Source: a phage | Sequence record: PZ445428.1 | Length of the DNA: 64,000 nucleotides | Direction: 5' to 3' (one strand) | Program-made: the position numbers and the translations under genes | Notes under the pieces: generated by a model | What the model was told of the DNA's origin: nothing | Seen by the model: only the letters and a program-made list of their open reading frames with translations | Databases searched by the model: none | Shown here: positions 8,064 to 62,202 of the stretch, in pieces | Layout of the letters: each line of letters begins with the position of its first letter | How positions within the stretch are numbered: the stretch's first letter is position 1

Positions 8064-8837
8064 TTATTTTTTCTCCAATAGTTCTTTAATCGACAGGATT
8101 TCTATCCCATTCGTTTCGGCTTTCTTATAAGATGAGGAAGAACGCTTTGATTCATCCTCACAGATGAGGTAGTTTACGTCTTTGGTAACGGACTTCTTAA
8201 CCGTATATCCTAGACTTTCTAAGTAGTTTGTTGCATCCGTTCTATTTGCAAAATCTTGCAAAGAACCGGTAATACATACCACGATTCCGTTCGGTTGAGC
8301 AACTAAATCATCGATAAAGATGATATCAGCTTTTGTGCCCCGAATACCAGAACTAAATTTCCATGGTAGTTCGATAACATCCTTGCCTTGTGGGGAATTT
8401 AGCCAGGCTTTATAATTTTCTCCAGCTTTGCCGTCAGCCTTAACATCATTAAAACTAATGCAACCCTGGGATAGCTTTTTAGCAGCAACCTCTCCAATCA
8501 GAGGGATTCCTAAAGAACCGAGAACTGAACCAAAGTCAATGTCTCCGCGAACCTTAGTATTTAACTCGCTAATTAACTTAGCGGCAACCTTACTTCCCAC
8601 AGCTCCGACCAAATCTTCTTCGGTCAGGTAAAACAGTTCTGAGATCTTAGTCAGTTCCAGCTTTTCAATTGTTTTCGGGCCAAAGCCCTTTAACTTCATC
8701 TTTGTGCAGAAGTTCTCAATTAACTTACTTGACTGAGCTGGACAGTTGGACTTATTCCGACAGAATAATTGTCCGTTGACAAGATCTAGCTTAGAACCAC
8801 AAGAGGGACATTGTGTTGGAATTTCGATTTTCATCAA
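8064..8837 (-). CDS. ligB: NAD-dependent DNA ligase, C-terminal subunit (Zn finger, HhH, BRCT)
   Basis: CPSCGSKLDLVNGQLFCRNKSNCPAQ zinc finger followed by HhH-like and BRCT-like segments; located downstream of the adenylation subunit. Confidence 0.75.
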   Translation of the reverse strand: MMKIEIPTQCPSCGSKLDLVNGQLFCRNKSNCPAQSSKLIENFCTKMKLKGFGPKTIEKLELTKISELFYLTEEDLVGAVGSKVAAKLISELNTKVRGDIDFGSVLGSLGIPLIGEVAAKKLSQGCISFNDVKADGKAGENYKAWLNSPQGKDVIELPWKFSSGIRGTKADIIFIDDLVAQPNGIVVCITGSLQDFANRTDATNYLESLGYTVKKSVTKDVNYLICEDESKRSSSSYKKAETNGIEILSIKELLEKK

Positions 8838-8864
8838 ATTTCTTCCTTATCAATTTATATAACT

Positions 8865-8893
8865 ATTATAGCAAGTATTTAAGCATTTAGCAA
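8865..8893 (-). promoter_or_regulatory. sigma70 promoter between the two ligase genes
   Basis: Reverse complement reads TTGCTAaatgcttaaatacttgcTATAAT then ATAAATTGATAAGGAAG. Confidence 0.6.
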
Positions 8894-9040
8894 CTACAAT
8901 TTTAACTAACTTTGCTTACCCTCGCCATAACTTTCTATCCCTCAACTGAATGATAATAGTATATACCTAAGCGGCGAAAATGTCAATAACCACTTTATAA
9001 TTCCGACATGGGAAACGGGTAGCAAAGGGTTATGAATTAC

Positions 9041-10054
9041 TTAATCTACTCGCTCTACAATACATGGGATTACACCACCAGCACGAATCACTCGAATCTG
9101 GCAACCGATCTCTAAATCGAGAGCGTTAATGTAATCAACGTTATTGAGAGTTGCTTTAATAATCTTGGCATCGTCAATAATTACCGGTTCGAAATATCCA
9201 ACAGGAGTTACTTTACCAGAAGCCCCTACCTGCCACTCAACTTTGAGAAGAGTTGTAATTTCGCCTTCTTCATCTTGTTTAATTGCATAAGCACCACGAG
9301 GATGTTTATTTGTCCAACCTTCACGGAAGAATTTGTTGTTGTCATTAATACGAACAACTTTACCATCCATTGGATACCAGTTGAAGTAGTTTTTAATATT
9401 CAGTACAGTGATGAAATCTTCGTTAGCTAACCAAGACATATCATCTAAGTAAGAGCCTGTAATACCTACAGAATCTTCGGAACACTGAATACCATAAGCT
9501 ACAAAGATCAATCCACCTTCCGCAATACGTTCGATGAAGTCATCTTCTTCTTTTAAGTTAATAGCACCAGAAGCGTAGTTACGTTTGTTTTCTACTTCTT
9601 TAGTGATAAGAACTTCACCAGTGATTTGAGTTGGTACTTTCTGAGAAATCTTTTTCGGAATGTTCAGCAATCTAACGTTGCTTGTGACATCATTTCCTAG
9701 AATACCATTACCACGAGTTAACGCTTGAACAAACGTTCCGTCGATATACAACAGAGAAATTGCGCAACCGTCTAGCTTATCAGTTTCTACATCATCAAGA
9801 GTAGTGAATGGAGCTTTATCACCCCGATCGAAGTAAACTTTCTGCAAAGAATACATACGATACAGATGTGGGATATCACCTTTCGGACCGATGGCATCTT
9901 CCGCTGTTGGGAAACGTTTAAGCAGACGATCATACTCAGCATCAGAGATAATACTATAACCCTGATAATACGCTTCTTGACAACGTTGGATAAACTCTTT
10001 TACATTATTCATCGTCGGCGATTTCCATCTTGAGTTCTTTATTATACTGCGCAA
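9041..10054 (-). CDS. ligA: NAD-dependent DNA ligase, N-terminal adenylation/OB subunit
   Basis: KxDG adenylation motif in VETDKLDGCAISLLY; 337 aa. Confidence 0.8.
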   Translation of the reverse strand: MRSIIKNSRWKSPTMNNVKEFIQRCQEAYYQGYSIISDAEYDRLLKRFPTAEDAIGPKGDIPHLYRMYSLQKVYFDRGDKAPFTTLDDVETDKLDGCAISLLYIDGTFVQALTRGNGILGNDVTSNVRLLNIPKKISQKVPTQITGEVLITKEVENKRNYASGAINLKEEDDFIERIAEGGLIFVAYGIQCSEDSVGITGSYLDDMSWLANEDFITVLNIKNYFNWYPMDGKVVRINDNNKFFREGWTNKHPRGAYAIKQDEEGEITTLLKVEWQVGASGKVTPVGYFEPVIIDDAKIIKATLNNVDYINALDLEIGCQIRVIRAGGVIPCIVERVD

Positions 10055-16040: not shown

Positions 16041-16130
16041 TAAAATTTTCCCGACGGTGCTATCAGTGGCCTTGAGTACGGAGAAAACCGAGCCAAAGTG
16101 ACTCGGTAATCAGGATTGTGCTAAGGAAAA

Positions 16131-16538
16131 TCAATCATCATTTAGACCTGGAACATAGATTCCAATACGGTTTAATTGATGTTTGGCTTCTTCGAGAATA
16201 TCTGGAGTGTACTCCCAAATATCATCTTCCACAAATAACAAATAAGGGGACTCACCTGTTTCGGGGTCACGTGTAATGGCGTAACCGCGTGGGTGGAACA
16301 GGGAGAAGTTTAGGGCAACAATAAGACCCATACGAGATAGCTCATTCCAGTGCATCTCAAAATCTACAGGAACATCATTTTGATCTCTACTGGTAACAAA
16401 GATTCCTAGACAAGGATCTGTCGGGTCAGTAAAGGGGAAAGTTACACTAACCTTTTCAACCCCCAACCAACGTGCAAGGAGCCCTTCAGCCCGCTCCACT
16501 AAACTAGGATCAATAAGACGCCAAGATACTTGTTCCAT
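16131..16538 (-). CDS. hypothetical protein, paralog of 16549-16977
   Basis: C-terminal half aligns with the neighbour: WNELSRMGLIVALNFSLF against WKELDYMGLVFALNYKLF, both ending IPGL/VPGL. Confidence 0.6.
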   Translation of the reverse strand: MEQVSWRLIDPSLVERAEGLLARWLGVEKVSVTFPFTDPTDPCLGIFVTSRDQNDVPVDFEMHWNELSRMGLIVALNFSLFHPRGYAITRDPETGESPYLLFVEDDIWEYTPDILEEAKHQLNRIGIYVPGLNDD

Positions 16539-16548
16539 TCTGCCTCCT

Positions 16549-16977
16549 TTAAGCAGTTAAACCAGGGATCTGATAGCCGAAATGACGCAGCTTCTGGATA
16601 CCCTCATTTATTTCTTCGGGCGAATAATGCCAGCCCTCACGTTCATTTACCTGGAAAGCCGGAGCCTCCCCATTACGATAGTTTACTATCAAACGATGTT
16701 TAATAGGCATGAACAGTTTGTAGTTCAATGCAAAAACCAATCCCATGTAGTCCAGTTCTTTCCAGTCTACAATCTCTTCTACCCCATCTTCCAACATTAC
16801 ACTGATACCAATGCAGCTAGCTTCATCAGAGTCTGAAGTAAACGCGAAAGCAATCTCATTATTCTCACACCAAATCTTGAGAGTATTAATGGCTTCCTCA
16901 AACAGATTATCCGGCAGAGAACGCCAGAAGTTGATAAGAAGTGGATTGATATTGGTTTCAAATAGGTTATTAAACAT
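16549..16977 (-). CDS. hypothetical protein, paralog of 16131-16538
   Basis: Tandem duplicate, 142 aa. Confidence 0.6.
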   Translation of the reverse strand: MFNNLFETNINPLLINFWRSLPDNLFEEAINTLKIWCENNEIAFAFTSDSDEASCIGISVMLEDGVEEIVDWKELDYMGLVFALNYKLFMPIKHRLIVNYRNGEAPAFQVNEREGWHYSPEEINEGIQKLRHFGYQIPGLTA

Positions 16978-16979
16978 AG

Positions 16980-17519
16980 CTATACCTTTAAGTTTTGAAG
17001 GGCTTTACACATTGCAAGATCAGGACTAAACTCCAGCATATAGCTGATAGCATTCAGATCCTGCATATTTATTCCAGTTCTACCATTGACAATAACTGTT
17101 GGATACTGGTACATCATAGCTCCAGCATCATCTAGGACACACCAGTGCTTGAGTTTGTACTTTTCCACAAACCGAAGAACAGAATTGCCTCTAGATAATC
17201 CACCACCAGTAAAATCAGTAGTACCAAGAAAACGATCAACCAGACCTAACGCGGTCATGATCTCAACATTCTCCACCTCGTTACGTACTGTAAACCATGA
17301 TGAAACCCCAACAATCATTATACCGGATGGTTTTAAGAAGTTCTGGAAAGCCTGTAGTAAAGGTTTGAAAACCCAGTCTCCACCAAAGAAGATCTTCTCT
17401 TCATCTGGAGCATGGTGGTGAGAGATGCTCGAATTGAGCACCCCATCAATATCCAGAAAAATAATTGGAGTATTACTTAGATCCACCGGATTTGTCCCAT
17501 TGCAGAGTTTTAGCTTCAT
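16980..17519 (-). CDS. HAD-superfamily phosphatase-like protein
   Basis: HAD motif I FLDIDGVL; motif II VGVSSW; later VLDDAG. Confidence 0.6.
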   Translation of the reverse strand: MKLKLCNGTNPVDLSNTPIIFLDIDGVLNSSISHHHAPDEEKIFFGGDWVFKPLLQAFQNFLKPSGIMIVGVSSWFTVRNEVENVEIMTALGLVDRFLGTTDFTGGGLSRGNSVLRFVEKYKLKHWCVLDDAGAMMYQYPTVIVNGRTGINMQDLNAISYMLEFSPDLAMCKALQNLKV

Positions 17520-17658
17520 CGGAGAAAGGAATATGGTAGTCTACCTTACCCTTACCAAACATAGCCGCCAAAAATACAGTATAGATAGTAATCATACCAA
17601 TCAGGTTTACAGTCCACACCAATACTTTCCAGATACCCTTAAAAATCTTCTTCACCAT
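17473..17658 (-). CDS. hypothetical small membrane protein
   Basis: 61 aa with one hydrophobic helix; overlaps the HAD gene start. Confidence 0.35.
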   Translation of the reverse strand: MVKKIFKGIWKVLVWTVNLIGMITIYTVFLAAMFGKGKVDYHIPFSDEAKTLQWDKSGGSK

Positions 17659-17821
17659 ATTCTTCCTCCTTAATCAGGAATTCTTTCCATTCTGCTGTAT
17701 CCTCATAGATAACGCAGAAATCATCACTCTTGCACGAGAAATCATCAGTAGCATATTCAAAACGGTAGCACCAACTACCATCTGGCCATACTAAAAGATC
17801 ACACATGCTTTTGCGGTGCAT
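17639..17821 (-). CDS. hypothetical small acidic protein
   Basis: 60-aa ORF overlapping neighbours by about 20 nt. Confidence 0.35.
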   Translation of the reverse strand: MHRKSMCDLLVWPDGSWCYRFEYATDDFSCKSDDFCVIYEDTAEWKEFLIKEEEYGEEDF

Positions 17822-18575
17822 AAATAGTTCCTTCCATAAAAGCCCCTACTTGGCCAATAAAGTGTTTGTTACCAAAAACTTCGGCAGCCCCAGCACGCCA
17901 TACAGTAACACCACGTTTCTCATACAAGGACTGTTCTAAGTAGTTGATAGTTGGGTTAACAACCATCATCTTAGTACCCCGTGCCACCGCAGGAAATAGT
18001 TCCCAGTTGAAGTTGATAACTTGGTTACTGCACCCAACCACGATAACCATATCATTAGCCGTAAGACTATCGAAAGTAGCGTTCATCAAAGCGTATTCAG
18101 GGGCTACTTCACCGAAGAATACAACGTTAGGCTTAGCCCAATAAAACTCATCAGGATCTATGGCAGTATAACCCACATCTAGGATATACTCTTTTCGATC
18201 TGGCAATTCCTTAATACGAACTTCTGGTAAATAACCATGAACGTGTAGAACTTCACTTTTTGGCACACCAGCCCTTTCCAGTAGATCATCCACGTTAGTA
18301 GTGATGTTCAGTACAGTCTCTGGATATCGTTGGAACCACTCCCCAATGCGGAGATGCGCAATGTTAGGTTCAACAGTCTGCAATTCCTGACGACGCTTGT
18401 TGTAGAACTCGTGGGTTTTCCAGTAGAACTGTCCACGGAAAGCATGAATATCACATACTTCTTCCAGATCGTATTCATCCCACATTGCCTTGCCACTAGC
18501 AGTATCTGTACGGAATGCACGGATACCACTATCAACACTTAAACCTGCACCACTAACAATAATTAGTCTACGCAT
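17799..18575 (-). CDS. SIR2-family (sirtuin-like) NAD-dependent protein
   Basis: N-terminal IVSGAGLSVDSGIRAFR matches the sirtuin GAGxSxxxGIPxFR NAD-binding motif. Confidence 0.65.
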   Translation of the reverse strand: MRRLIIVSGAGLSVDSGIRAFRTDTASGKAMWDEYDLEEVCDIHAFRGQFYWKTHEFYNKRRQELQTVEPNIAHLRIGEWFQRYPETVLNITTNVDDLLERAGVPKSEVLHVHGYLPEVRIKELPDRKEYILDVGYTAIDPDEFYWAKPNVVFFGEVAPEYALMNATFDSLTANDMVIVVGCSNQVINFNWELFPAVARGTKMMVVNPTINYLEQSLYEKRGVTVWRAGAAEVFGNKHFIGQVGAFMEGTIYAPQKHV

Positions 18576-18813
18576 TTTTCACCTGCTCTCGGAAATTTTG
18601 ACCAATACTATCTAATAGCTCAGCTAATTCTTTATTACCTTTTTCTACTAAGGTATTAGCAATAACTTCCAGCATAGTAGCACAAGATTCAACACCATCT
18701 TTGTAACCAGTTTCCCAGTGTTTCATTAAAACACCCTGAAACTCTTCATTGAGCTTGTTTAGGTCAATGAGGCTAACATTTTCACTTGGTAGCTTCTGAC
18801 TCGAGAATGCCAT
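18568..18813 (-). CDS. hypothetical protein
   Basis: Start moved to ATG at 18813, 9 nt after GGAGG; the upstream part of the track ORF looks non-coding. Confidence 0.45.
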   Translation of the reverse strand: MAFSSQKLPSENVSLIDLNKLNEEFQGVLMKHWETGYKDGVESCATMLEVIANTLVEKGNKELAELLDSIGQNFREQVKNA

Positions 18814-18985
18814 ACAGTTTGTCCTCCAGTTCCATAATACGATTTTCATAGGAAGCACGCAGCTTCTCGATGGATAAAGCACGAACCGTAACCTCATCTG
18901 AGTTAATCGCCAGTTGAGCGAGGTCTTCCGTTTCCATGCGGCCATTGTAAATTAAGCGATATTTAAGATGTTTTACGTTTTTCAT
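18782..18985 (-). CDS. hypothetical protein
   Basis: 67-aa ORF. Confidence 0.45.
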   Translation of the reverse strand: MKNVKHLKYRLIYNGRMETEDLAQLAINSDEVTVRALSIEKLRASYENRIMELEDKLYGILESEATK

Positions 18986-18994
18986 TCTTCTTCC

Positions 18995-19276
18995 TTAGTT
19001 CTGTACTGTAAATGCGTTTTTATCGGCATGAGCATTATAAGGATCATTCATGCGATAGATTTTCACAGCTTTAGTAGACCCTTTTGATTCTTCATAATCA
19101 ATCCAGAGCCACTTGTCTTTGCCTACATAATGTACCCGAAATTTCTTAACTTTCTTATCGTTCCACGTTGCTACAACTCTACGATAATCAAAGCCACCTA
19201 ACCAATCAAGAGCCTTACGTTCTTCACTAGGCTCTCCCAAATGTGAAACGTCCACTTTAGGAAGCAATTCGCTCAT
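18995..19276 (-). CDS. hypothetical protein
   Basis: 93 aa, downstream of the N25-like promoter at 19295-19323. Confidence 0.55.
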   Translation of the reverse strand: MSELLPKVDVSHLGEPSEERKALDWLGGFDYRRVVATWNDKKVKKFRVHYVGKDKWLWIDYEESKGSTKAVKIYRMNDPYNAHADKNAFTVQN

Positions 19277-19294
19277 AGCTTTCTCCTCTCAAAT

Positions 19295-19323
19295 TTATAA
19301 ATCTATTATACACAAATTTTTAG
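19295..19323 (-). promoter_or_regulatory. N25-like early promoter
   Basis: Reverse complement reads TTGCTTTCAGctaaaaatttgtgTATAATAGATTTATAAATTTGAGAGGAG. Confidence 0.65.
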
Positions 19324-19357
19324 CTGAAAGCAAATAAAATAAAAGCCAGGTCGACTA
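19322..19357 (-). terminator. intrinsic terminator after nrdD
   Basis: Minus-strand RNA forms AGCCAGGT...ACCTGGCT hairpin followed by TTTTATTTT. Confidence 0.6.
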
Positions 19358-19375
19358 GCAACCTGGCTGATTCAC

Positions 19376-21250
19376 TTATTTAGCGCGAACGTCTCTATGT
19401 TTCACTCGACCCATAACCTCATGTTGTTTACCAGGGTTAAAAGGACGTGCTCCTGGGTTCCCAAGATAACCACAAACTCGACGAGTTACCTCTAAAGTTT
19501 CAGGATCATGGTTTCCACAGATAGGACATTTGAATCCATCCTCAGAAGCGATAGTCTCACCCAAGAATCCACACTCACCACAGGAATCTACGGGGGTATT
19601 AATACCGAAGTAATGAACCTTACTTGCAGCATAATTAATAACCCATTCCAATGCATCAGGGAATTTCTTCATATCAGGTAATTCCACATAGGAAATGCAC
19701 CCACCAGAAGCAATTGGGGTAAAGTTAGACTCATAATCAAACTTCACGTTTGGAGCAACCTTACGTTCCACATCAAGGTGATGTGAGTTAGTATAGTATC
19801 CTTTACCAAGAATATCTTCATGCTCTGGGAAATATTCACGGTCTAGACGACAGAAGCGATCACATAGGGATTCAGAAGGCGTTGCATACAAACTGTACCC
19901 TAACTGAGTTTCTTCCTTCTTCTGATCTGCACGATCACGCATATATTGTAAAACACGCTGTACAAACTTAATGCAGGTGTCAGACATTGTATCTACATCC
20001 TTACCAAACATAAACTGTAACATTTCATGGCAGCCAATGTACCCTAGTGATACAGAAGCACGCTTGTAGAAATGATCAAACACATATTCATCGGGCCCCA
20101 GACGTAATCCAAAGGCTCCTGACATATAGAGGATGGGCGCAGCTTTAGCTTGAATGTATTTTAAGCGATCAACCCTCCACTCCAATGCTTTAAGTGCAGT
20201 ATCAACACGCAGCTCAAGCAGATCGAAAAACAGATCAATATCTCCATCGGCTTCGATAGCGATTCGAGGAAGGTTTACAGAAACGACACCTAAGTTATTA
20301 CGACCTGATGTTTCTCCATCTTCCGCAGCAGCTAAGAATGAGCGGCAGCCCATAGAAACTTTGTAGTCTCCAGTAACTTCAACTACCTTATCATAGCTGA
20401 TATAGTCAGGATACATACGTTCGGCAGTACACTTCATAGCTAACTTCTTGATATCGTAGTTTACATCACCAGGTTTCATATTAACGCCATCACGAAGTAC
20501 AAATACCAGTTTAGGGAAGATTGCAGTACGTTTATTGATACCCAGACCATCCATACGTACTTCTAGGATTGCTTTCTGTACAAGACGAGCTTCCCAAGAA
20601 GTTCCTAAACCAAAGCCAAAGGTGATAAAAGGACTCTGACCATTAGAGTTGAACATCGTATTGATCTCATACTCTAGACCCTGACAGGCGTCGTAAACTT
20701 CTTTCTCAGTCATTTCCGTAGCCATTACAGATGCTTTGGCTTCGTCCTTAGTCCAACGCTTAGCGAACGCATGGTTCTTATCATAAGATTTACGAACGTA
20801 AGGGGCTAATACTTCATCAAGACGGTCAACAGAAGTACCGCCATATTGATGGGAGCTAACCTGAGTAATAATCTGAGCTGTAATAGCAGCCGCAGTAGTG
20901 ATAGAATTTGGCGTACTGATTTCAGCATTACCAACCTTCATACCATTCTTCAACATATCTTCCAAAGCAACGAGGCAACAGTTAGTCATACCTAAAGCTG
21001 CATAGTCAGCATCGTGGAAGTGAATATCACCAATCATATGAGCATTTCGAATCTGAATCGGCATTTCTTCTAGAATCAGATACTTACTCAACTCACCTGC
21101 TAGCATATCCCTTTGAGTAGGGAAGCGTTCTGAAGGTTTATTGGCGTTATTAAACAGCAGCTCTTCATCTGCTGAACCTTCGATAATTTCCTTGCAGTTT
21201 GTAATTAAAGACTGCATTCTTTTAATCTTCATCTGATCATTGTGATTCAT
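19376..21250 (-). CDS. nrdD: anaerobic ribonucleoside-triphosphate reductase (class III)
   Basis: 624 aa; C-terminal Cys cluster and glycyl-radical motif RVCGYLG. Confidence 0.9.
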   Translation of the reverse strand: MNHNDQMKIKRMQSLITNCKEIIEGSADEELLFNNANKPSERFPTQRDMLAGELSKYLILEEMPIQIRNAHMIGDIHFHDADYAALGMTNCCLVALEDMLKNGMKVGNAEISTPNSITTAAAITAQIITQVSSHQYGGTSVDRLDEVLAPYVRKSYDKNHAFAKRWTKDEAKASVMATEMTEKEVYDACQGLEYEINTMFNSNGQSPFITFGFGLGTSWEARLVQKAILEVRMDGLGINKRTAIFPKLVFVLRDGVNMKPGDVNYDIKKLAMKCTAERMYPDYISYDKVVEVTGDYKVSMGCRSFLAAAEDGETSGRNNLGVVSVNLPRIAIEADGDIDLFFDLLELRVDTALKALEWRVDRLKYIQAKAAPILYMSGAFGLRLGPDEYVFDHFYKRASVSLGYIGCHEMLQFMFGKDVDTMSDTCIKFVQRVLQYMRDRADQKKEETQLGYSLYATPSESLCDRFCRLDREYFPEHEDILGKGYYTNSHHLDVERKVAPNVKFDYESNFTPIASGGCISYVELPDMKKFPDALEWVINYAASKVHYFGINTPVDSCGECGFLGETIASEDGFKCPICGNHDPETLEVTRRVCGYLGNPGARPFNPGKQHEVMGRVKHRDVRAK

Positions 21251-31433: not shown

Positions 31434-32135
31434 ATGAAAGTAAAACCATTTGGTATGCTGGACATTGAATCCCTAGGGACTCCAGATAACTGTGGAACAA
31501 CCCATATCGCAATGCCGTCTTTCGCTTTCGTAGCCATGCACGGAATTGATACAGACCCTGACCTGATCTTCGTAACCCTAGACGTTCAAGATCAACTTAA
31601 TGCAGGTGCTAAAGTTACTGCATCTACATTTGCTTTCTGGATGGATCAGGCTAAAAATAGCCCATCTGCCCTCCACATTATGGAAGCTTTACAAAGCAAA
31701 GGTGCAAAACTCATTGCATTCCGTGATGGTAAACACCAGTGCACTAATGAACTAGGTTCAAACTATGGAGCTTACCTCATGGCTAAGAACATGATGGAAA
31801 TCTTCCTAGACGAAAATGCACTGTACTACGGCAATGGCCCAGAATTTGATATGACTATCTACTCTGCTAATACGTTCCATGCTGGAACTAATGAAGCAGT
31901 CGTTCCATGGAAATTCTGGAATCTGGGTAACGTTCGTTCTTTCCGTAATCTGTGGATGCAAGCAGGTTATAATTACAAAGAACTGGAAGCCGAAGGTGCT
32001 AGCTGGGCTAAGGCTAAAATGGAGAAGATGGACACCATTCGTTATGGAATCTATCCAGTTAAGCATGATCCAGCATTCGATGCATTAGTTGAAAGTTACT
32101 GCGTTGCGCGCATGATCGAAAAAATCAAAATTTGA
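31434..32135 (+). CDS. putative DEDDh-type 3'-5' exonuclease
   Basis: N-terminal MLDIESLG (DxE) and C-terminal YPVKHDPAFDALVESY (H-x4-D). Confidence 0.5.
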   Translation: MKVKPFGMLDIESLGTPDNCGTTHIAMPSFAFVAMHGIDTDPDLIFVTLDVQDQLNAGAKVTASTFAFWMDQAKNSPSALHIMEALQSKGAKLIAFRDGKHQCTNELGSNYGAYLMAKNMMEIFLDENALYYGNGPEFDMTIYSANTFHAGTNEAVVPWKFWNLGNVRSFRNLWMQAGYNYKELEAEGASWAKAKMEKMDTIRYGIYPVKHDPAFDALVESYCVARMIEKIKI

Positions 32136-36457: not shown

Positions 36458-37402
36458 ATGTTTACTAAAAACACTAAAGAACTAACTTCTGAACAAAAAG
36501 TAATTCGTACTATTAAACGTTGGGGTGTTGGTGCTGTAGTTGGTCTTGGTGCTCTTATTCTGGCTCTCAATTCCTATACAGTTGTTCAGGACGGTACTGT
36601 AAAGACTCAGACATTCTTGGGTAAAGTTAACCCGAACCCTGTACTGCCAGGGTTTCACATTGTCAACCCATTCGCTTCTTTTGATACTTTTAGTACGAAA
36701 GATATTTCCATGAAACTGGATAAGCTTCAGGTTCCTAGCCAGGATAAGTTTAAGTCCACTGTTGATATTACTGTTATGTTGCAGTTCGATGGTGCTAAAG
36801 CTCCGATGAACCGTGTTAACGCAGGTACTCAGGATCAGGCGCTGAACAAGTATGTTGAAGAGAAGATGCTGTCTACTATCCGTGAATTTGGTAAGTCTGT
36901 ACCGAAAGCACAGGATCTGTTCGACGCTAAGATTCAGGCACAGCTGCAAACTGCAATTCAGCAGGAAGTTGAAGAATATGCTCGTCCTTATGGTTACACC
37001 GTGAAGCAAGTATTCCTTCAGGATATTACACTTCCGCCAGTAATCATGGAACAGGTTCAGAACACAAAAGTTCGTGAAGAACAAGTTAACGCCGCTAAAG
37101 CTGAACTAGCTCGTGTTGAACAAGAAGCACAGCAGAAAGTTAAGCAAGCTGAAGCAGATCGTTCTGCTCGTGAAAACATGGCAGTAGCTAACGAACGTGA
37201 CGCAGATGCTAAACTGTACGCAGCTAAGAAAGAAGCTGAAGCTAACGCCGCACTGCAACGTACCATTACCCCTGAAATGATTCGTTGGAAACAGCTGGAA
37301 GTTGAAATGCTTCGTGCTGAGAAATATCAGGGTGGTGTACCGCAGACTGTAGTTGGTACTGGTTATGATGGCCAGATGATCATGGATATGCGTAACAAGT
37401 AA
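36458..37402 (+). CDS. SPFH/band-7 (stomatin/prohibitin-like) membrane protein
   Basis: N-terminal TM segment, SPFH-like core, long C-terminal coiled coil (EQEAQQKVKQAEADR). Confidence 0.6.
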   Translation: MFTKNTKELTSEQKVIRTIKRWGVGAVVGLGALILALNSYTVVQDGTVKTQTFLGKVNPNPVLPGFHIVNPFASFDTFSTKDISMKLDKLQVPSQDKFKSTVDITVMLQFDGAKAPMNRVNAGTQDQALNKYVEEKMLSTIREFGKSVPKAQDLFDAKIQAQLQTAIQQEVEEYARPYGYTVKQVFLQDITLPPVIMEQVQNTKVREEQVNAAKAELARVEQEAQQKVKQAEADRSARENMAVANERDADAKLYAAKKEAEANAALQRTITPEMIRWKQLEVEMLRAEKYQGGVPQTVVGTGYDGQMIMDMRNK

Positions 37403-40249: not shown

Positions 40250-41314
40250 ATGATTAAGACTGGTCTAGTAATTGGTAAATTCGCACCATTAACTCGTGGT
40301 CATATCAACCTTATTAATACTGCGGCGACAATGTGTGAGCGCGTTATCGTTGTAGTTAGCCACGACAATCGTTGGCTGGATAAGCAAAACTCTAGGGATC
40401 AAGAAGTCCTACAGTTGAAGAATCGTTTACGATGGCTTGAGCAGACTTATGCAGATATTGAGCATGTGGAAATCCACGATCTTATCGAAGATGATATTCC
40501 TGAGTACCCTAATGGATGGGAAGCATATACCAAGATACTCCAGGAGTGTTATGGTATGTATCCTGAAATCACTATCTTTTCTAGTGAAATTGGGTATGAT
40601 GCGGAGTACAAAAAGTATCTGCCAAACTTCGGCCATTATATTGTAGACTCGGAACGCACTCGTGTACCAATCTCTGCTACTATGATTCGTGAGAATCTGA
40701 TGAAGTATTGGGAGTTCCTGCCTAGCATAGTTCGTAAAGACTATGTTCGCAAGGTAGTTGTTATCGGTACTGAAAGCTCTGGCAAGACAACTTTAACAAA
40801 GTATCTTGCGAAGTTATATAATACTTCATGGGTTGAAGAGTATGGTCGTACATACTGTGAAGTTGACTTAGTAGGCAACGAAAGCCTACTGACTAGCGAC
40901 GACTACACGAAGATTGCATTTAGGCACAAAGAGCTAGAGTTTGAAGCAGAATGTACTGCAAATAAGATCATGTTTGTGGATACCAATGCTTTCATTACTG
41001 AGTTCTACCATAGACTCTACGAACATCGTAAGAATCCTGTGGTTACGGCTATTGCGAAAGAAGAACATTACGATTTAGTTATTGTTCTAGCACCTACTGT
41101 GAAGTGGGTAGATGATGGTTTACGTATTAACTCAGATCGTTCTATTACTTCAGAACTATTCGAGCAGATGAAGGAGGAGTTCCCTAACCAATTCCCAGAG
41201 GGACGCACTGTTTATATCGACTCACCGGACTACAAAGTTCGTATGGACGAAGCTGTAAATGCTGTAGACTGGTTAATTCATTATGTTGACGCGGGAGCTA
41301 TCCAATATGACTAA
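40250..41314 (+). CDS. nadR: bifunctional NMN adenylyltransferase / ribosylnicotinamide kinase (NadR-like, no HTH)
   Basis: GKFAPLTRGHINLI, NRLRWL, YPNGWEAY, ISATMIRENLMKYWEFLP and kinase P-loop VVVIGTESSGKTTL align along E. coli NadR. Confidence 0.85.
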   Translation: MIKTGLVIGKFAPLTRGHINLINTAATMCERVIVVVSHDNRWLDKQNSRDQEVLQLKNRLRWLEQTYADIEHVEIHDLIEDDIPEYPNGWEAYTKILQECYGMYPEITIFSSEIGYDAEYKKYLPNFGHYIVDSERTRVPISATMIRENLMKYWEFLPSIVRKDYVRKVVVIGTESSGKTTLTKYLAKLYNTSWVEEYGRTYCEVDLVGNESLLTSDDYTKIAFRHKELEFEAECTANKIMFVDTNAFITEFYHRLYEHRKNPVVTAIAKEEHYDLVIVLAPTVKWVDDGLRINSDRSITSELFEQMKEEFPNQFPEGRTVYIDSPDYKVRMDEAVNAVDWLIHYVDAGAIQYD

Positions 41315-41984
41315 TTATCTTGTAAATGACTTTAAAAACTGGAAACCTCTGGAATATCTGTGGCTGTTCATTGCAGTGGCCTTCATTAGTTTGGCTAACT
41401 ATAATGGTACAGCACTAGATTGGGCAACAGCAATCACCAACGTTGTTTGTGTTATTCTGGTTGCAAAGGGGCGTGTTTCTAACTATGTCTGGGGTTTGGT
41501 AGGTGTTCTGACCTACGGAATTACAGCTCTAAATGCTGATCTTTATGGTAACGCAGCGCTAAACCTGTTGTACTACGTCCCTATGCAGTTCTACGGAATG
41601 TACTTGTGGCATAAAAATAAGCCAAGTAATCTGCCGGATGTTCCAACTAAAGTTCTGACAAAAGCTCAAGCTTTGCTGACTCTAGGGATTTTAGCAGTAG
41701 CAACATTAGGTTATGGTAGTTTCCTTGCTACTACGGCTGATCCATTCCCAATGTTAGACGCATTTACCGCGGTTGGCAGTGTGATTGCTATGTGGCTTAT
41801 GGTTAAGCAGTATGCTGAACAGTGGCTGATCTGGATTGCCATTAACTTTGGTACTGTGTACATCTGGCTTGTAACTGCCCAATCTACGGGTGCATCTTAC
41901 GCAATCCTGGCAATGTGGCTGGTATTCTTAGGTAACTCTATTATGGGAGCCTATAAAGGCTACTTTGTAAGAGTTAACAAGTAA
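41307..41984 (+). CDS. pnuC: nicotinamide riboside transporter PnuC
   Basis: Multi-TM protein; DAFTAVGSVIAMWLMVKQYAEQWLIWIAINFGTVYIWL matches the PnuC conserved core. Confidence 0.8.
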   Translation: MTNYLVNDFKNWKPLEYLWLFIAVAFISLANYNGTALDWATAITNVVCVILVAKGRVSNYVWGLVGVLTYGITALNADLYGNAALNLLYYVPMQFYGMYLWHKNKPSNLPDVPTKVLTKAQALLTLGILAVATLGYGSFLATTADPFPMLDAFTAVGSVIAMWLMVKQYAEQWLIWIAINFGTVYIWLVTAQSTGASYAILAMWLVFLGNSIMGAYKGYFVRVNK

Positions 41985-59961: not shown

Positions 59962-60342
59962 ATGAATTACGCTTACTTAATAATCCATAATAACGTAGTT
60001 TGTGGTACTCGCGCTGTCGAAATGGGTATCACAGAAGAAAAGTATAACTCTTTGTCTGAATCGGAGCAAGAATACTATGTCGAACAAGCTGCTTGGGAAT
60101 ATGCTGAAGCTTATCCCGAAGAACGTGAAGGCCGCGTTACTATTGTTGTGTCTTTGGGCTTGGTTGGCTGTGATACCGAAGTTGATACAGATTTAGAAAC
60201 GCTTGAAGAATGGGAAGAGCTAGATATTGGCGAACAAAACGCTATTATCAAAACATCTTTCTGGGAAGCAGTAGACTGCCATGTAGTCTTTGAGCCTAAC
60301 GATAACGAAGCTGAAAAGCACACTAATTGGATGACTCGATAA
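59962..60342 (+). CDS. hypothetical acidic protein
   Basis: 126-aa ORF after promoter TTGCTA-17-TATAAT. Confidence 0.5.
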   Translation: MNYAYLIIHNNVVCGTRAVEMGITEEKYNSLSESEQEYYVEQAAWEYAEAYPEEREGRVTIVVSLGLVGCDTEVDTDLETLEEWEELDIGEQNAIIKTSFWEAVDCHVVFEPNDNEAEKHTNWMTR

Positions 60343-61205
60343 TGAAAAAAGAATTTAATGTACATGAAACGCTGGTAGTTCCTGATACCGCTAACCTGTT
60401 CTTCGTAGGTGATATTCATGGTTGCCATGATATGCTGGAAGATGCACTCAAACTAGCAGGATACAAGGATCGTCGTGACTATGTTGTTTGCGTTGGTGAT
60501 CTAATCGACCGTGGTAAGCAGAATTTACAGGTTCTAGCGAAGTTCCTTTACAACCCACGTTTCCGCAGCGTTCGTGGCAATCATGATCAGTTTATGATTG
60601 GTGGCGACTATGCCAACTGGATGTACAACGGTGGTAGTTGGGCAATGAATGATATGGATACTGATACCATTAAGGGTATTGCAGCAGATATGGCTGAAAA
60701 ACTTCCAGTATTCATGACTATTCTGCATCGTGGCAAGAAGTATGGCGTAGTTCATGGTGGTGTCCCATTCCAATATAAGGATAATGGGAATGATGTACAT
60801 AAACCTAACTGGGATACTATCATTCAGACTATCGAAGCCAGCAAACTCGATAAGAATGATCATCCAGCATATTACATCGAGCCTTATCTGTGGGATCGTG
60901 ATGTAATTCAGGAAATTGGGTTCAATCTGGCACGTCAAGGTGCTACAGATGAGTATTTCCAGCGGTACGCTAGCTTTAAGGCAGAATTAGTAATGGAAGT
61001 ACCTCCGGTGGATGGTGTGGATTTCGTATTCCATGGTCATACTGGTGTTCCATATCCAATTCTGTACCAGAACCGTGTTTACCTCGATACTGGCGGTGTT
61101 TTCAACGGCAAGTTGACGGTTGCGCAAGTTAGTGATGATGCTAACAAAATTATAACGTTTACCACAGATCGTGATGATAGCTGTGGTGTGCAGAGGGTTC
61201 TCTAA
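60342..61205 (+). CDS. Ser/Thr protein phosphatase (calcineurin-like)
   Basis: GDIHGCHD, GDLIDRG and GNHD motifs. Confidence 0.75.
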   Translation: MKKEFNVHETLVVPDTANLFFVGDIHGCHDMLEDALKLAGYKDRRDYVVCVGDLIDRGKQNLQVLAKFLYNPRFRSVRGNHDQFMIGGDYANWMYNGGSWAMNDMDTDTIKGIAADMAEKLPVFMTILHRGKKYGVVHGGVPFQYKDNGNDVHKPNWDTIIQTIEASKLDKNDHPAYYIEPYLWDRDVIQEIGFNLARQGATDEYFQRYASFKAELVMEVPPVDGVDFVFHGHTGVPYPILYQNRVYLDTGGVFNGKLTVAQVSDDANKIITFTTDRDDSCGVQRVL

Positions 61206-61579
61206 TGGAACGCGAAGAACGTTACATAGTTATAAAGCTAGCCGATATTGAGAAAGCCCTAGAATTAGGGCATATCAATCAAAGCAACATTACTACGCTA
61301 GAGCATATCGTTACTAAGATATGGTATAGTCGTAATCAGCGTGGTAAAGAGGATCTCAAAACTGTCGTGGTAGAACAAGATTGGCCTGAATATGAAAAAG
61401 TTTGGGAAATGCTTGAAGAACGGGATGAAAAAGAAGACTATGCCAACTCTGAGTATAATAGTGGGTGGGATAATGCATTAATGCATATAGGTAGTGGCGA
61501 GAAACCTTACCTAATAAGAGGTATTAGCCCTTACGCTACAGGTTGGAATACTTATATGAAATCCTTGAGGAATGAATAA
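61205..61579 (+). CDS. hypothetical protein
   Basis: 124-aa ORF. Confidence 0.5.
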   Translation: MEREERYIVIKLADIEKALELGHINQSNITTLEHIVTKIWYSRNQRGKEDLKTVVVEQDWPEYEKVWEMLEERDEKEDYANSEYNSGWDNALMHIGSGEKPYLIRGISPYATGWNTYMKSLRNE

Positions 61580-62202
61580 TGAAAGTTAAATTCTGGTCGG
61601 ATTTGCACTTAGACCACCCAGGGACATTACGTTTCCGTCCATGGTTTAAGAACATGAAAGAGCACGATGAATATATTCTGGATACCCTATCCAAGCACAT
61701 CGGCAAGCGTACTAAGCTCGTCCTGCTAGGAGACATTGCAGTAGGTCGTGAAGGTCTGGCAAAATTAAAATCGGTTATCTACAACGTGCCGAACCAACTT
61801 ATCCTGGGCAACCATGATGCTGAACGTCAGGGTCTGCGTATTAAAGATCTTGTAGACGTTTACGATGATATTCAGGCTCTAGGTAAGCAGACTGGTGGTG
61901 GCAAGAAGTTCTGGCTGTCACACTGCCCATTGCACGAAGCTGAACTTCGGGGTAAGGTAAACATCCACGGACACGTTCACACCAATTCTGTACGTGACCA
62001 ACGTTATATCAACGTTTCATTTGAAATGAGCAAGACACCGATTACTCTAGAAGATATCGTGTCTGGTAAGTATCAGACGTGGAACAAGATTGTTGACCCA
62101 ATTACTGGTGTTGTATCTGAAATTAGCCAAGATATGGTTGATATCCTTAGTAAGGGGTTTACTTTCGCTGATGGACACCCTGTGAGGACTAACAATGTTT
62201 GA
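61579..62202 (+). CDS. calcineurin-like metallophosphoesterase
   Basis: DLHLDH, LGDIAVG, GNHD and GHVH motifs. Confidence 0.65.
   Translation: MKVKFWSDLHLDHPGTLRFRPWFKNMKEHDEYILDTLSKHIGKRTKLVLLGDIAVGREGLAKLKSVIYNVPNQLILGNHDAERQGLRIKDLVDVYDDIQALGKQTGGGKKFWLSHCPLHEAELRGKVNIHGHVHTNSVRDQRYINVSFEMSKTPITLEDIVSGKYQTWNKIVDPITGVVSEISQDMVDILSKGFTFADGHPVRTNNV

What the first reader, a model, noticed from the sequence alone, without database searches (positions are those of the whole stretch)
17799..18575. SIR2-like protein in the replication block
The N-terminus carries the sirtuin NAD-binding signature (GAGLSVDSGIRAFR). SIR2 domains act as NAD+-consuming effectors in bacterial defence; in a phage this could be a deacylase or ADP-ribosyltransferase acting on host or phage targets, and it links to the NadR-PnuC NAD+ module.
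Basis: partly seen in the sequence, partly recalled or inferred. Interest (0 to 1): 0.5.

Follow-up and report, generated by a model that had tools for sequence, protein, structure and literature searches.

The report
Zinc-free sirtuin gene of T5-like phage
This is a real, already-annotated phage gene for a sirtuin (an enzyme that consumes NAD+); it keeps its catalytic residues but has lost the usual zinc site, and nobody has yet tested what it acts on during infection.

Summary
Confirmed. Window 17799-18575 (minus strand) is a 258-aa ORF. It is bas27_0052, 'Sir2-like protein', of Escherichia phage TrudiGerster (T5-like).

- **Family:** Pfam SIR2 E=2e-23; PHROG 2162 E=3e-105. The AF2 model matches E. 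coli CobB (TM 0.73-0.83). No defence-type (PADLOC) hit.
- **Residues kept:** GAGLS...FR, N94, D96, catalytic H113, the class-III YxxR motif and the acyl-pocket residues.
- **Residues changed:** all Zn cysteines are missing and TQNID is TTNVD, in all 121 close relatives.
- **Prior knowledge:** about 1000 phage records carry it (T5.102, rV5 gp84, KVP40.0043). The Zn-less state (Skliros 2016) and an RNA-repair context (Iyer 2022) were described in silico. I found no biochemistry.
- **Context:** in T5-like phages it travels with a capless HAD_SAK_2 phosphatase (28/32 loci; gene order inverted on one contig; co-deleted in DT57C). In Vequintavirinae it sits with Rnl1-cREC-kinase, and near NARP1-like genes in Mydovirus-like members. 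In a jumbo phage it sits with NMNAT-NamPT-Nudix.
- **NadR-PnuC (now NARP3):** 22 kb away on the other strand, so the link is thematic, not physical.

Most likely a NAD+-dependent lysine deacylase with specialised targets (~0.45). Main rival: Tpt1-like removal of RNA 2'-phosphate (~0.2). Already known; modest interest.

The parts
17799..18575 (-). Sirtuin ORF, 258 aa (bas27_0052, 'Sir2-like protein'; orthologue of T5.102)
   Evidence: ORF; Pfam SIR2 E=2.3e-23; PHROG 2162 E=2.9e-105; GenBank annotation; AF2 model pLDDT 86.8 with best fold match CobB
18580..18584 (-). Shine-Dalgarno AGGTG, 4 nt before the ATG. The upstream ORF's stop (18568) overlaps the start by 8 nt.
18510..18551 (-). NAD+-binding motif GAGLSVDSGIRAFR (residues 9-22)
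   Evidence: G9, A10, G11, S13, S16, G17, F21 and R22 are invariant in alignment A1
18453..18455 (-). C41, invariant in the clade; aligns to the CobB acyl-pocket residue A76
   Evidence: wild-type vs A76G CobB alignments; PDB titles name A76 as an engineered pocket residue
18393..18404 (-). Y58-N-K-R61, the class-III sirtuin YxxR motif (CobB Y92/R95) that binds anionic acyl groups
   Evidence: alignment to CobB FYNARR; Y in 260/269 and R in 233/269 relatives
18288..18302 (-). TTNVD (residues 92-96): the canonical TQNID with Gln replaced by Thr; N94 and D96 kept
18237..18239 (-). Catalytic His H113 (HG motif; CobB H147)
   Evidence: 267/269
18135..18233 (-). Small beta module (residues 115-147) that replaces the Zn ribbon. 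It has no cysteine, is confidently modelled, and contains an invariant G135-Y136.
   Evidence: 0 Cys; pLDDT 88-92 and strands 114-122, 130-133, 146-151; clade-wide state
18003..18035 (-). GCSNQVINFNW (residues 181-191): a remodelled substrate-cleft loop. The canonical form is GTSxxVYP; CobB V219-Y220-P221 becomes V-I-N.
   Evidence: CobB numbering cross-checked with PMC5107563
16980..17519 (-). Partner gene: a capless HAD phosphatase, HAD_SAK_2 (bas27_0049; annotated start at 17486). It has intact DxD, SS and DD motifs.
17473..17821 (-). Two small overlapping ORFs (60 and 61 aa) between the sirtuin and the HAD gene; function unknown
   Evidence: PHROGs 5116 and 11166
18568..19276 (-). Three small upstream ORFs of the same unit (81, 67 and 93 aa); function unknown
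16131..16977 (-). Two tandem DUF7415 paralogues that close the unit (T5.106/T5.107 homologues)
   Evidence: E=1.6e-30 and 7.3e-27
19344..19368 (-). Strong intrinsic terminator after nrdD (10-bp stem plus T run); marks the upstream end of the unit
   Evidence: same position as the annotated T5 terminator
16087..16107 (-). Hairpin ACCGAGTCA-CTT-TGGCTCGGT followed by TTTTCTC, 24 nt after the last ORF; a likely terminator of the unit (weak tail)
   Evidence: T5 has an annotated terminator at the equivalent place

Best explanation
The gene encodes a catalytically competent, zinc-independent sirtuin of class-III (CobB/SIRT5) descent. It belongs to a clade found almost only in phages.

Proposed mechanism: it binds NAD+ and expels nicotinamide when an acyl-lysine carbonyl oxygen attacks C1' of the ribose. 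It then uses H113 to activate the ribose hydroxyl, so that the acyl group leaves as O-acyl-ADP-ribose. In short, NAD+-dependent lysine deacylation, probably with a preference for acidic acyl groups because the YxxR dyad is kept.

Because the peptide-binding cleft is remodelled (no Zn ribbon cysteines, VYP to VINF, Gln to Thr), I expect a narrow set of phage or host protein targets rather than CobB's broad range. The gene is an accessory early gene. It sits in one minus-strand unit with, and is co-inherited with, a capless HAD phosphatase, so the pair probably acts on the same macromolecular target or pathway.

Shown here: family, fold, residue states, operon layout, co-inheritance and distribution. 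Inferred: enzymatic activity, substrate class and biological role.
For: - **Family and fold:**
- **Residues for NAD+ binding and nicotinamide cleavage:** all kept and nearly universal in 269 relatives (G9/G11, S13, R22, N94, D96, H113, F154, E156).
- **Acyl-lysine pocket:** the residues that were engineered in CobB (A76, Y92, I131, V187; PDB titles) are conserved or conservatively replaced: C41, Y58, V95, V151, plus R61 for R95.
- **No sign of nucleic-acid binding:** no clade-specific gain of conserved basic residues near the site. The whole clade is acidic, with pI 4.6-6.05 and charge -5 to -20. That fits a protein substrate better than an RNA substrate.
- **Closest sequence and structure neighbours:** CobB, Sir2Af and SIRT5.
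- **Zn-free module:** modelled with pLDDT about 90, so a folded small domain without Zn is plausible. Skliros 2016 argued the same for KVP40-type homologues and measured transcription of the φSt2 gene during infection.
- **HAD partner:** its nearest structural neighbours are capless HADs that act on macromolecules, including the protein phosphatases SCP1 and UBLCP1.
- **Base rate (my knowledge):** characterised PF02146 sirtuins that have the catalytic His are overwhelmingly deacylases.
Against: - I found no biochemistry for any member of the clade.
- In three phage lineages the gene sits among RNA-end or ADPR/NAD-processing genes rather than next to obvious protein clients.
- In canonical sirtuins the Zn site and the TQN Gln are considered important (my knowledge). 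Both are lost together: odds ratio 26, Fisher p=5e-14, not corrected for phylogeny.
- All CobB-type NCBIfam models score far below their cutoffs.
- Host CobB itself restricts T4 and lambda (PMC4271551), so simply adding CobB-like activity would not obviously help a phage.
- The host already has CobB.
Confidence: 0.45

Rival explanations
1. RNA-repair enzyme that works like Tpt1/KptA (the prediction of Iyer et al. 2022). An RNA 2'-phosphate attacks NAD+ C1'' in the sirtuin site, giving RNA-2'-phospho-ADPR and nicotinamide. H113 then activates O2'' to release 2'-OH RNA and ADPR-1'',2''-cyclic phosphate. cREC or HAD_SAK_2 processes the phosphorylated ADPR or the RNA ends, and NARP1 can rebuild NAD+. 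The purpose would be to rescue tRNAs cut by host anticodon nucleases.
For: - HAD_SAK_2 lies next to the sirtuin in 28/32 T5-like loci, with gene order inverted on contig L108, and both were removed by one deletion in DT57C.
- In Vequintavirinae, Rnl1 + cREC + an AAA_33 kinase + a metallophosphoesterase flank the sirtuin, and stay together despite rearrangement and only 42-65% sirtuin identity.
- tRNA clusters lie nearby.
- The two-step Tpt1 chemistry (PMC6097658, PMC11417386) parallels sirtuin chemistry (inference).
- The yeast pathway Tpt1 -> Cpd1 -> Poa1p would be mirrored by Sir2 -> cREC -> phosphatase. A Poa1p-like phosphatase is a proven phage NARP1 accessory. HAD_SAK_2 occupies the equivalent operon position upstream of Adps-Namat in ChuuTotoro.
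Against: - The pocket stays hydrophobic and CobB-like, with no added Arg/Lys.
- The clade is strongly acidic.
- I know of no sirtuin shown to act on RNA, and none turned up in the searches.
- The T5-like window has no detectable RNA ligase or polynucleotide kinase among the genes checked.
- A third group of about 150-kb phages shows no repair neighbours.
- Clustering of early nucleic-acid genes in phages can reflect expression timing rather than a shared pathway.
Confidence: 0.22
2. Mono-ADP-ribosyltransferase that modifies a host or phage protein, or a nucleic acid. This would be the T5-like counterpart of T4 Alt/ModA/ModB, used for host takeover or superinfection control.
For: Some sirtuins have ART activity (discussed in PMC9503650). 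The gene is an early gene. The substrate cleft is remodelled.
Against: - There is no adjacent Macro-domain partner of the kind found with ART-type sirtuins.
- The catalytic His and the acyl pocket are fully kept, which an ART does not need.
- The gene is dispensable in the DT57C lineage.
Confidence: 0.1
3. A small-molecule enzyme in the NAD+/ADPR arms race. The sirtuin would cleave or exchange the nicotinamide of NAD+ or an ADPR derivative, the HAD would dephosphorylate an ADPR phosphate, and together they would feed or regulate NAD+ reconstitution.
For: - Block NMNAT-NamPT-Sir2-Nudix in the jumbo phage pEa_SNUABM_50.
- Prs/Adps-like and Namat/NamPT-like genes within 7 kb upstream of the sirtuin in about 10 non-T5 loci.
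- Operon HAD_SAK_2-Adps-Namat in ChuuTotoro and in a 152-kb contig, with Namat identity shown by 9W5X at E=1e-115.
- Precedent of NARP1-AP.
Against: - A phage gains nothing obvious from an NADase.
- The acyl-lysine tunnel residues are conserved.
- In this window the NAD+ module (NARP3) is 22 kb away.
- The HAD is capless, a type usually associated with macromolecular substrates (rule from my knowledge of HAD classification).
Confidence: 0.1
4. A decayed enzyme retained only as an NAD+-binding or structural protein.
For: Loss of the Zn site and of the motif Gln. Scores below the NCBIfam cutoffs. Lost in DT57C.
Against: Catalytic residues are invariant across lineages that have diverged to 33-60% identity, and about 1000 phage genomes keep a full-length gene.
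Confidence: 0.03

Closest known systems
E. coli CobB (class III sirtuin; PDB 1S5P, 6RXJ)
   Same: - Best sequence and fold match (E=5e-19; TM 0.73-0.83).
- Shares the GAGxS...FR motif, N and D of TQNID, the catalytic His, FGE, the YxxR dyad and the pocket residues.
   Different: - About 26% identity; below every NCBIfam CobB cutoff.
- No Zn cysteines; Gln to Thr; VYP to VIN; A76 to Cys.
- Acidic; phage-encoded.
Phage orthologues: T5.102, rV5 ORF84, KpS8 gp233 (PHROG 2162)
   Same: Same clade, 52-70% identity, with the same Zn-free/TTNVD state. T5 has the same gene order as this window.
   Different: The neighbourhood differs by lineage: HAD_SAK_2 in T5-likes, Rnl1-cREC-kinase in Vequintavirinae. 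None has been characterised biochemically.
KVP40.0043 / phiSt2 Sir2/CobB (Skliros et al. 2016, PMC5107563)
   Same: A distant member of the same phage lineage (38-41% identity). The absence of a Zn site was already reported there in silico, and a deacetylase role tied to NamPT/NMNAT was proposed.
   Different: It has TAN rather than TTN, keeps the INP of the lysine tunnel, and has no HAD neighbour.
Human SIRT5
   Same: Class-III YxxR motif and fold.
   Different: SIRT5 has a Zn ribbon and TQNID; identity is about 21%.
Tpt1/KptA RNA 2'-phosphotransferase
   Same: Only a possible functional analogy: NAD+ as ADP-ribose donor to an oxygen nucleophile, followed by attack of the ribose 2''-OH (inference).
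   Different: Unrelated fold and family. Tpt1 uses an Arg/His cluster, and nothing comparable is conserved here.
Defence SIR2 NADases (ThsA, DSR1/2, SIR2-HerA, SIR2-APAZ)
   Same: Same superfamily; they consume NAD+.
   Different: No PADLOC model matches. The Pfam hit is PF02146 only. No HerA, SLOG or Argonaute partner is present.
NARP1-AP Macro phosphatase Adpp (Osterman et al. 2026 preprint)
   Same: Relevant to the partner gene. A phosphatase placed in the Adps-Namat operon converts ADPR-1''P to ADPR. HAD_SAK_2 homologues occupy that operon position in ChuuTotoro.
   Different: Adpp has a Macro fold, whereas this partner is a capless HAD. The HAD's activity is untested, and in this window it sits next to the sirtuin, not next to NARP1.

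Membership tests
Sirtuin / SIR2 (Pfam PF02146) | Profile score above the curated threshold over the whole domain | tested here: met
   83.5 bits against 24, profile positions 1-178 of 180
Sirtuin / SIR2 (Pfam PF02146) | Rossmann-type NAD+ site with GAGxS and SGIxxFR | tested here: met
   Residues 9-22 are GAGLSVDSGIRAFR; invariant in the clade
Sirtuin / SIR2 (Pfam PF02146) | Catalytic His in the HG motif | tested here: met
   H113 aligns to CobB H147; present in 267/269 relatives
Sirtuin / SIR2 (Pfam PF02146) | TQN(I/V)D motif | tested here: inconclusive
   N94 and D96 are kept, but Gln is replaced by Thr (TTNVD) in 121/121 close relatives
Sirtuin / SIR2 (Pfam PF02146) | Zn ribbon with four cysteines in the small domain | tested here: not met
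   0 Cys in residues 115-147; at most 2 in all 121 close relatives. The beta module itself is still modelled confidently
Sirtuin / SIR2 (Pfam PF02146) | Sirtuin fold | tested here: met
   Foldseek E=5e-17, TM 0.73/0.83 to 1S5P
Sirtuin / SIR2 (Pfam PF02146) | NAD+-dependent deacylase or ADP-ribosyl transfer activity | not testable with these tools
   Needs an enzyme assay; no published assay was found
Class III sirtuins (CobB/SIRT5) | YxxR motif that recognises acidic acyl groups | tested here: met
   Y58 and R61 align to CobB Y92 and R95; conserved
CobB equivalogs (NCBIfam NF040867, NF001753 and others) | Score above the curated equivalog or subfamily cutoff | tested here: not met
   91.9 against 320; 108.7 against 243
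Defence-type SIR2 effectors | Match to PADLOC models, or an adjacent defence partner (HerA, SLOG, TIR, pAgo) | tested here: not met
   0 PADLOC families; the neighbours are small ORFs, a HAD and DUF7415 genes
Macro-linked ART sirtuins (SirTM type) | Adjacent Macro-domain gene | tested here: not met
   No Macro domain in the operon
Phage sirtuin clade with RNA-repair neighbourhood, type 3 of Iyer et al. 2022 (phage SP15 type) | Sirtuin linked to a 'Swiss-army-knife' HAD phosphatase | tested here: met
   HAD_SAK_2 lies 280 nt downstream, E=8.7e-19; present in 28/32 T5-like loci; SP15 is itself among the HAD hits
Tpt1/KptA | Homology to the 2'-phosphotransferase family | tested here: not met
   The only Pfam hit is SIR2. 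This bears on membership only, not on a possible functional analogy

The most novel reading that the evidence does not exclude
The sirtuin and its HAD_SAK_2 partner would be non-homologous replacements for the Tpt1 and Poa1p steps of fungal-type tRNA ligation. In Vequintavirinae, Rnl1, a P-loop kinase and cREC would supply the remaining steps.

In this reading the sirtuin removes RNA 2'-phosphates at the expense of NAD+. The capless HAD dephosphorylates the ADPR-phosphate by-product, and the same HAD family also serves as a second, non-Macro type of NARP1-associated phosphatase. This would couple phage tRNA repair to the NAD+ arms race and would be the first sirtuin shown to act on RNA.
Probability: 0.2. 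Interest if true: 0.75.

Novelty: already known. Interest (0 to 1): 0.3.

Why it matters
As a finding it is ordinary. The gene is annotated in this very GenBank record, and it has been annotated in T5 since the genome was deposited (AY543070).

It matters a little more as an open problem. About a thousand sequenced phages keep a catalytically intact, zinc-free sirtuin whose substrate nobody has tested. Phage NAD+ biology has meanwhile become central to defence and counter-defence (NARP1, NARP2, NARP3, aRES). A phage enzyme that spends NAD+ while the host tries to destroy it, and other phage genes rebuild it, needs explaining.

The co-inheritance with a capless HAD phosphatase, and that HAD family's appearance at the head of NARP1 operons, give concrete and cheap experiments.

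Tried and rejected
1. **Defence-type SIR2 effector:** rejected. There are no PADLOC hits, the Pfam hit is PF02146 only, and no partner genes are present.
2. **Physical link to NadR-PnuC:** rejected. The module is 22 kb away on the other strand, 0/67 loci have it within 7 kb, and only 2 of the Sir2-bearing IMG/VR contigs returned a close NadR.
3. **My own early inference that T5 lacks the gene:** wrong. T5 has an intact T5.102-T5.105; only DT57C-type phages carry a 91-aa Sir2::HAD fusion remnant.
4. **Search for the ligase or kinase that a repair pathway needs in this window:** none found among ten larger unannotated proteins, nor in the record's annotation.
5. **Multi-domain relatives as 'Rosetta stone' evidence:** uninformative. 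They showed a tandem SIR2, WG repeats and a GIY-YIG domain, all in Zn-bearing distant relatives.
6. **Names of distant Zn-free relatives:** mostly unnamed metagenomic sequences; one comes from a Neptunomonas MAG.
7. **Third group of about 150-kb phages:** no informative neighbours (C5 methylase, DUFs).
9. **Morganella T4-like phage:** it has a distant HAD homologue, but the neighbouring 262-aa gene is not a sirtuin.
10. **ChuuTotoro:** it has HAD-Adps-Namat but no sirtuin in the 24 kb examined.
11. **Sirtuin rebuilding NAD+ from ADPR-1''P plus nicotinamide:** set aside on my rough thermodynamic estimate, and because the HAD would destroy the substrate (inference only).
Full report
**Identity of the window and the gene.** Megablast of window 17000-20000 gives a 100% match to Escherichia phage TrudiGerster (Bas27; MZ501108.1; Demerecviridae, Epseptimavirus). 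Window position equals record position minus 32480. The finding's coordinates delimit one minus-strand ORF of 258 codons, with ATG at 18575 and stop at 17799. An AGGTG ribosome-binding site lies 4 nt upstream. The GenBank record already calls it bas27_0052, 'Sir2-like protein'.

**Observation check.**
- Pfam SIR2 (PF02146) matches end to end: 83.5 bits against a cutoff of 24, E=2.3e-23.
- PHROG 2162, 'Sir2 (NAD-dependent deacetylase)', matches at E=2.9e-105.
- The best solved relative is E. coli CobB at E=5e-19, followed by archaeal Sir2Af1/2, SIRT5, Sir2Tm and SIRT3.
- An AlphaFold2 model built on 25 homologues has mean pLDDT 86.8. Its best Foldseek matches are CobB (TM 0.73/0.83), then Sir2Af and SIRT5.
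- No PADLOC defence model matches. All CobB-type NCBIfam models score far below their cutoffs.

The protein is a deacylase-type sirtuin, not a defence-type SIR2, and it is not a CobB equivalog.

**Residue anatomy.**
- In the CobB alignment the catalytic His (CobB H147) aligns with H113.
- The class-III YxxR dyad (CobB Y92/R95) aligns with Y58/R61.
- The positions that differ between wild-type CobB and its engineered pocket variants (A76G, I131C) align with C41 and V95. The PDB titles name these engineered residues. V187 corresponds to V151 (my residue count).
- CobB's Zn cysteines align with non-cysteine residues. The protein has only two Cys, at positions 41 and 182.
- TQNID is TTNVD, and the lysine-tunnel VYP is VIN. 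My CobB numbering agrees with Skliros et al..
- The beta module that replaces the Zn ribbon (residues 115-147) is modelled at pLDDT about 90.

**How general these states are.**
- Across 120 database homologues plus the query, all 121 have Thr at the Gln position and at most 2 Cys in the Zn region.
- H113, N94, D96, G9/G11, R22 and F154 are nearly universal across 269 aligned relatives.
- A profile search of 1.84 billion representative proteins found 6108 relatives.
- Among 141 of the 148 more distant representatives from that search that were fetched and scored: Gln with at least 3 Cys, 78; Thr with at most 2 Cys, 34; Thr with at least 3 Cys, 10; Gln with at most 2 Cys, 10. The odds ratio is 26.5 and Fisher p=5e-14, not corrected for shared ancestry.
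- The Zn-free, T(T/A/S)N state holds in T5-like, rV5-like, Mydovirus, 7-11-like, about 150-kb phage and KVP40-type homologues. Remote phage sirtuins with TQN keep CxxC...CxxC.
- The clade is uniformly acidic: pI 4.6-6.05, net charge -5 to -20.

**Distribution and prior knowledge.**
- tblastn finds the protein in 1011 phage records, usually annotated as Sir2-like or NAD-dependent deacetylase.
- T5 itself has an intact T5.102, 'putative Sir2-like protein', in the same gene order. rV5 ORF84 and KVP40.0043 are further homologues.
- Skliros et al. 2016 (PMC5107563) reported the missing Zn site in KVP40-type homologues from modelling. They measured transcription of the phage gene and proposed a deacetylase coupled to NamPT/NMNAT.
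- Iyer et al. 2022 (PMC9503650) defined a viral sirtuin clade and predicted a KptA-like RNA-repair role from three neighbourhood types. The third type, phage SP15, is the T5-like sirtuin plus a 'Swiss-army-knife' HAD.
- Five full-text searches found no biochemical or genetic test of any member.

The finding itself is therefore already known. The function is not.

**Local context.**
- A strong terminator follows nrdD at 19368-19344. A hairpin with a short T tail follows the last ORF at 16107-16087.
- Between them lie nine same-strand, mostly overlapping ORFs: three small ORFs, the sirtuin, two small ORFs, a 179-aa HAD_SAK_2 protein (PF18143, E=8.7e-19), and two DUF7415 paralogues.
- T5 has predicted promoter and terminator annotations at the equivalent borders.
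- The HAD has intact catalytic motifs and a confident model (pLDDT 93.4).

**Co-inheritance with the HAD.**
- Of 67 IMG/VR loci encoding a relative, 32 are T5-like, recognised by nrdD upstream. Of these, 28 have the HAD 0.8-1.3 kb downstream. Many of these genomes are close relatives, so they are not independent samples.
- Of 27 contigs found with the HAD as query, 26 are also in the sirtuin set. The exception carries a truncated HAD.
- On an 8-kb T5-like metagenomic contig the order is HAD, a 116-aa ORF, then SIR2, the inverse of the order here.
- In DT57C a 91-aa ORF fuses sirtuin residues ~168-208 to the HAD C-terminus. One deletion therefore removed the rest of both genes. The pair is dispensable in that lineage.
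- Three T5-like loci have the sirtuin without the HAD. Distant HAD homologues occur without a sirtuin in T4-like Morganella and Aeromonas phages and in ChuuTotoro.

**Context in other lineages.**
- In rV5 and KpS8 the sirtuin sits with a T4-type RNA ligase 1, a cREC domain protein, an AAA_33 P-loop kinase, a metallophosphoesterase, a MazG-like protein and an ATP-dependent DNA ligase. The arrangement differs between the two genera. About 13 IMG/VR loci repeat this pattern.
- In Mydovirus-like loci, Prs-like and NamPT-like genes lie 5-7 kb upstream. Such a pair in Bas63 is NARP1 (Adps + Namat).
- In the jumbo phage pEa_SNUABM_50 the order is NMNAT, a hypothetical gene, NamPT, three small genes, Sir2, Nudix.
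- A third group of about 150-kb phages shows nothing informative.

**The HAD family and NARP1.**
- In Serratia phage ChuuTotoro and in a 152-kb contig, a HAD_SAK_2 homologue heads a same-strand operon with a Prs-like and a NamPT-like gene.
- The NamPT-like protein matches the solved Namat structures 9W5X/9W5W at E=1e-115, against 1e-48 for canonical NamPT. PMC12774641 confirms that those entries are Namat.
- Osterman et al. (2026 preprint) showed that some NARP1 operons carry a Macro-domain phosphatase, a Poa1p homologue. It converts ADPR-1''P, made by the aRES defence, into ADPR.
- The HAD could be a non-homologous counterpart of that phosphatase. This is inference only.

**NadR-PnuC.** Its TrudiRoth orthologues were characterised in 2026 as NARP3, a nicotinamide-riboside import and NAD+ synthesis pathway that defeats Sir2-HerA. 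It lies 22 kb from the sirtuin on the opposite strand. It is never within 7 kb in the 67 loci, and its close homologues are much rarer (about 207 records at 80% identity or more). The link is thematic only.

**Weighing the mechanisms.**

For canonical lysine deacylation:
- every catalytic and acyl-pocket residue is kept;
- the tunnel remains hydrophobic;
- no new conserved basic residues appear;
- the clade is acidic;
- the nearest relatives are all deacylases;
- the HAD's nearest structures include protein phosphatases.

For a Tpt1-like RNA 2'-phosphotransferase:
- the sirtuin is repeatedly linked, in rearranged orders, to RNA-end and ADPR-processing enzymes in three phage lineages;
- the two chemistries are parallel (Tpt1 mechanism in PMC6097658 and PMC11417386).

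Against the Tpt1-like reading:
- the pocket and charge arguments listed above;
- no ligase or kinase is detectable among the genes checked in the T5-like window;
- no sirtuin acting on RNA is known.

Host CobB restricts T4 and lambda, which argues that the phage enzyme is not simply extra CobB. I put deacylase at about 0.45, Tpt1-like at about 0.22, ADP-ribosyltransferase at about 0.10, a small-molecule NAD/ADPR role at about 0.10, and inactive at about 0.03. None of these can be decided without assays.

**Verdict.** The finding is already known at the annotation level and in two in-silico papers.
- the clade-wide Gln-to-Thr change coupled to Zn loss;
- the mapping of CobB pocket residues onto the phage protein;
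- quantified co-inheritance with HAD_SAK_2, including the inverted order and the co-deletion;
- the appearance of the HAD family in bona fide NARP1 operons.

Noticed in passing
window 16980-17519 (-); PHROG 18062; records listed: PHROG 18062 (92 aa, labelled 'Sir2') matches only the C-terminal half of the HAD_SAK_2 protein. The label probably comes from DT57C-type Sir2::HAD fusion remnants. As a result, many RefSeq T5-like genomes annotate the HAD gene as 'Sir2 (NAD-dependent deacetylase)', for example S132, Stitch, faergetype and SP15; Th1 even has 'Sir2 x2'.
   Followed up: partly
L110 6001-9217 (Serratia phage ChuuTotoro ON287369); L111 6001-9569: A HAD_SAK_2 homologue is the first gene of a same-strand operon with a Prs-like gene (probable Adps) and Namat. 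Namat identity is shown by E=1e-115 to 9W5X. It may be a HAD-type counterpart of the Macro phosphatase Adpp of NARP1-AP. Untested.
   Followed up: partly
L107 312-6171 (Erwinia jumbo phage pEa_SNUABM_50): NMNAT, NamPT, the clade's sirtuin and a Nudix hydrolase lie in one same-strand block. These enzymes could consume NAD+ and recycle both products.
   Followed up: no
window 40250-41984 (+): The NadR-like and PnuC-like genes (bas27_0092/93) sit at the head of the tRNA gene cluster. They are orthologues of the NARP3 anti-defence pathway published in 2026.
   Followed up: partly
L003 3468-3740 (phage DT57C): A 91-aa ORF annotated 'sir2' is a chimera of sirtuin residues ~168-208 and the last ~35 residues of the HAD. 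It is the scar of a deletion that removed both genes and the two small ORFs between them.
   Followed up: yes
window 31434-32135 (+), bas27_0073: The gene is annotated 'putative metallopeptidase', but its only Pfam hit is the Rv2179c-like 3'-5' exoribonuclease domain (E=2.9e-8).
   Followed up: no
window 36458-37402 (+), bas27_0085: A 'hypothetical protein' next to the tRNA region has an SPFH/Band 7 domain (E=4e-19).
   Followed up: no
window 16131-16977 (-): Two tandem paralogues, each with two DUF7415 repeats, end the sirtuin-HAD unit. They are retained in DT57C, which has lost the sirtuin and the HAD. Function unknown.
   Followed up: no
window 8064-10012 (-), bas27_0037/0038: The NAD-dependent DNA ligase is annotated as two separate subunit genes, A and B, with a ~200-nt gap between them. 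It is a second NAD+-consuming phage enzyme in the same early region.
   Followed up: no
window 60342-62202 (+), bas27_0162/0163: Two calcineurin-like metallophosphoesterases are annotated as Ser/Thr phosphatases. The same superfamily flanks the sirtuin in rV5 and KpS8.
   Followed up: no
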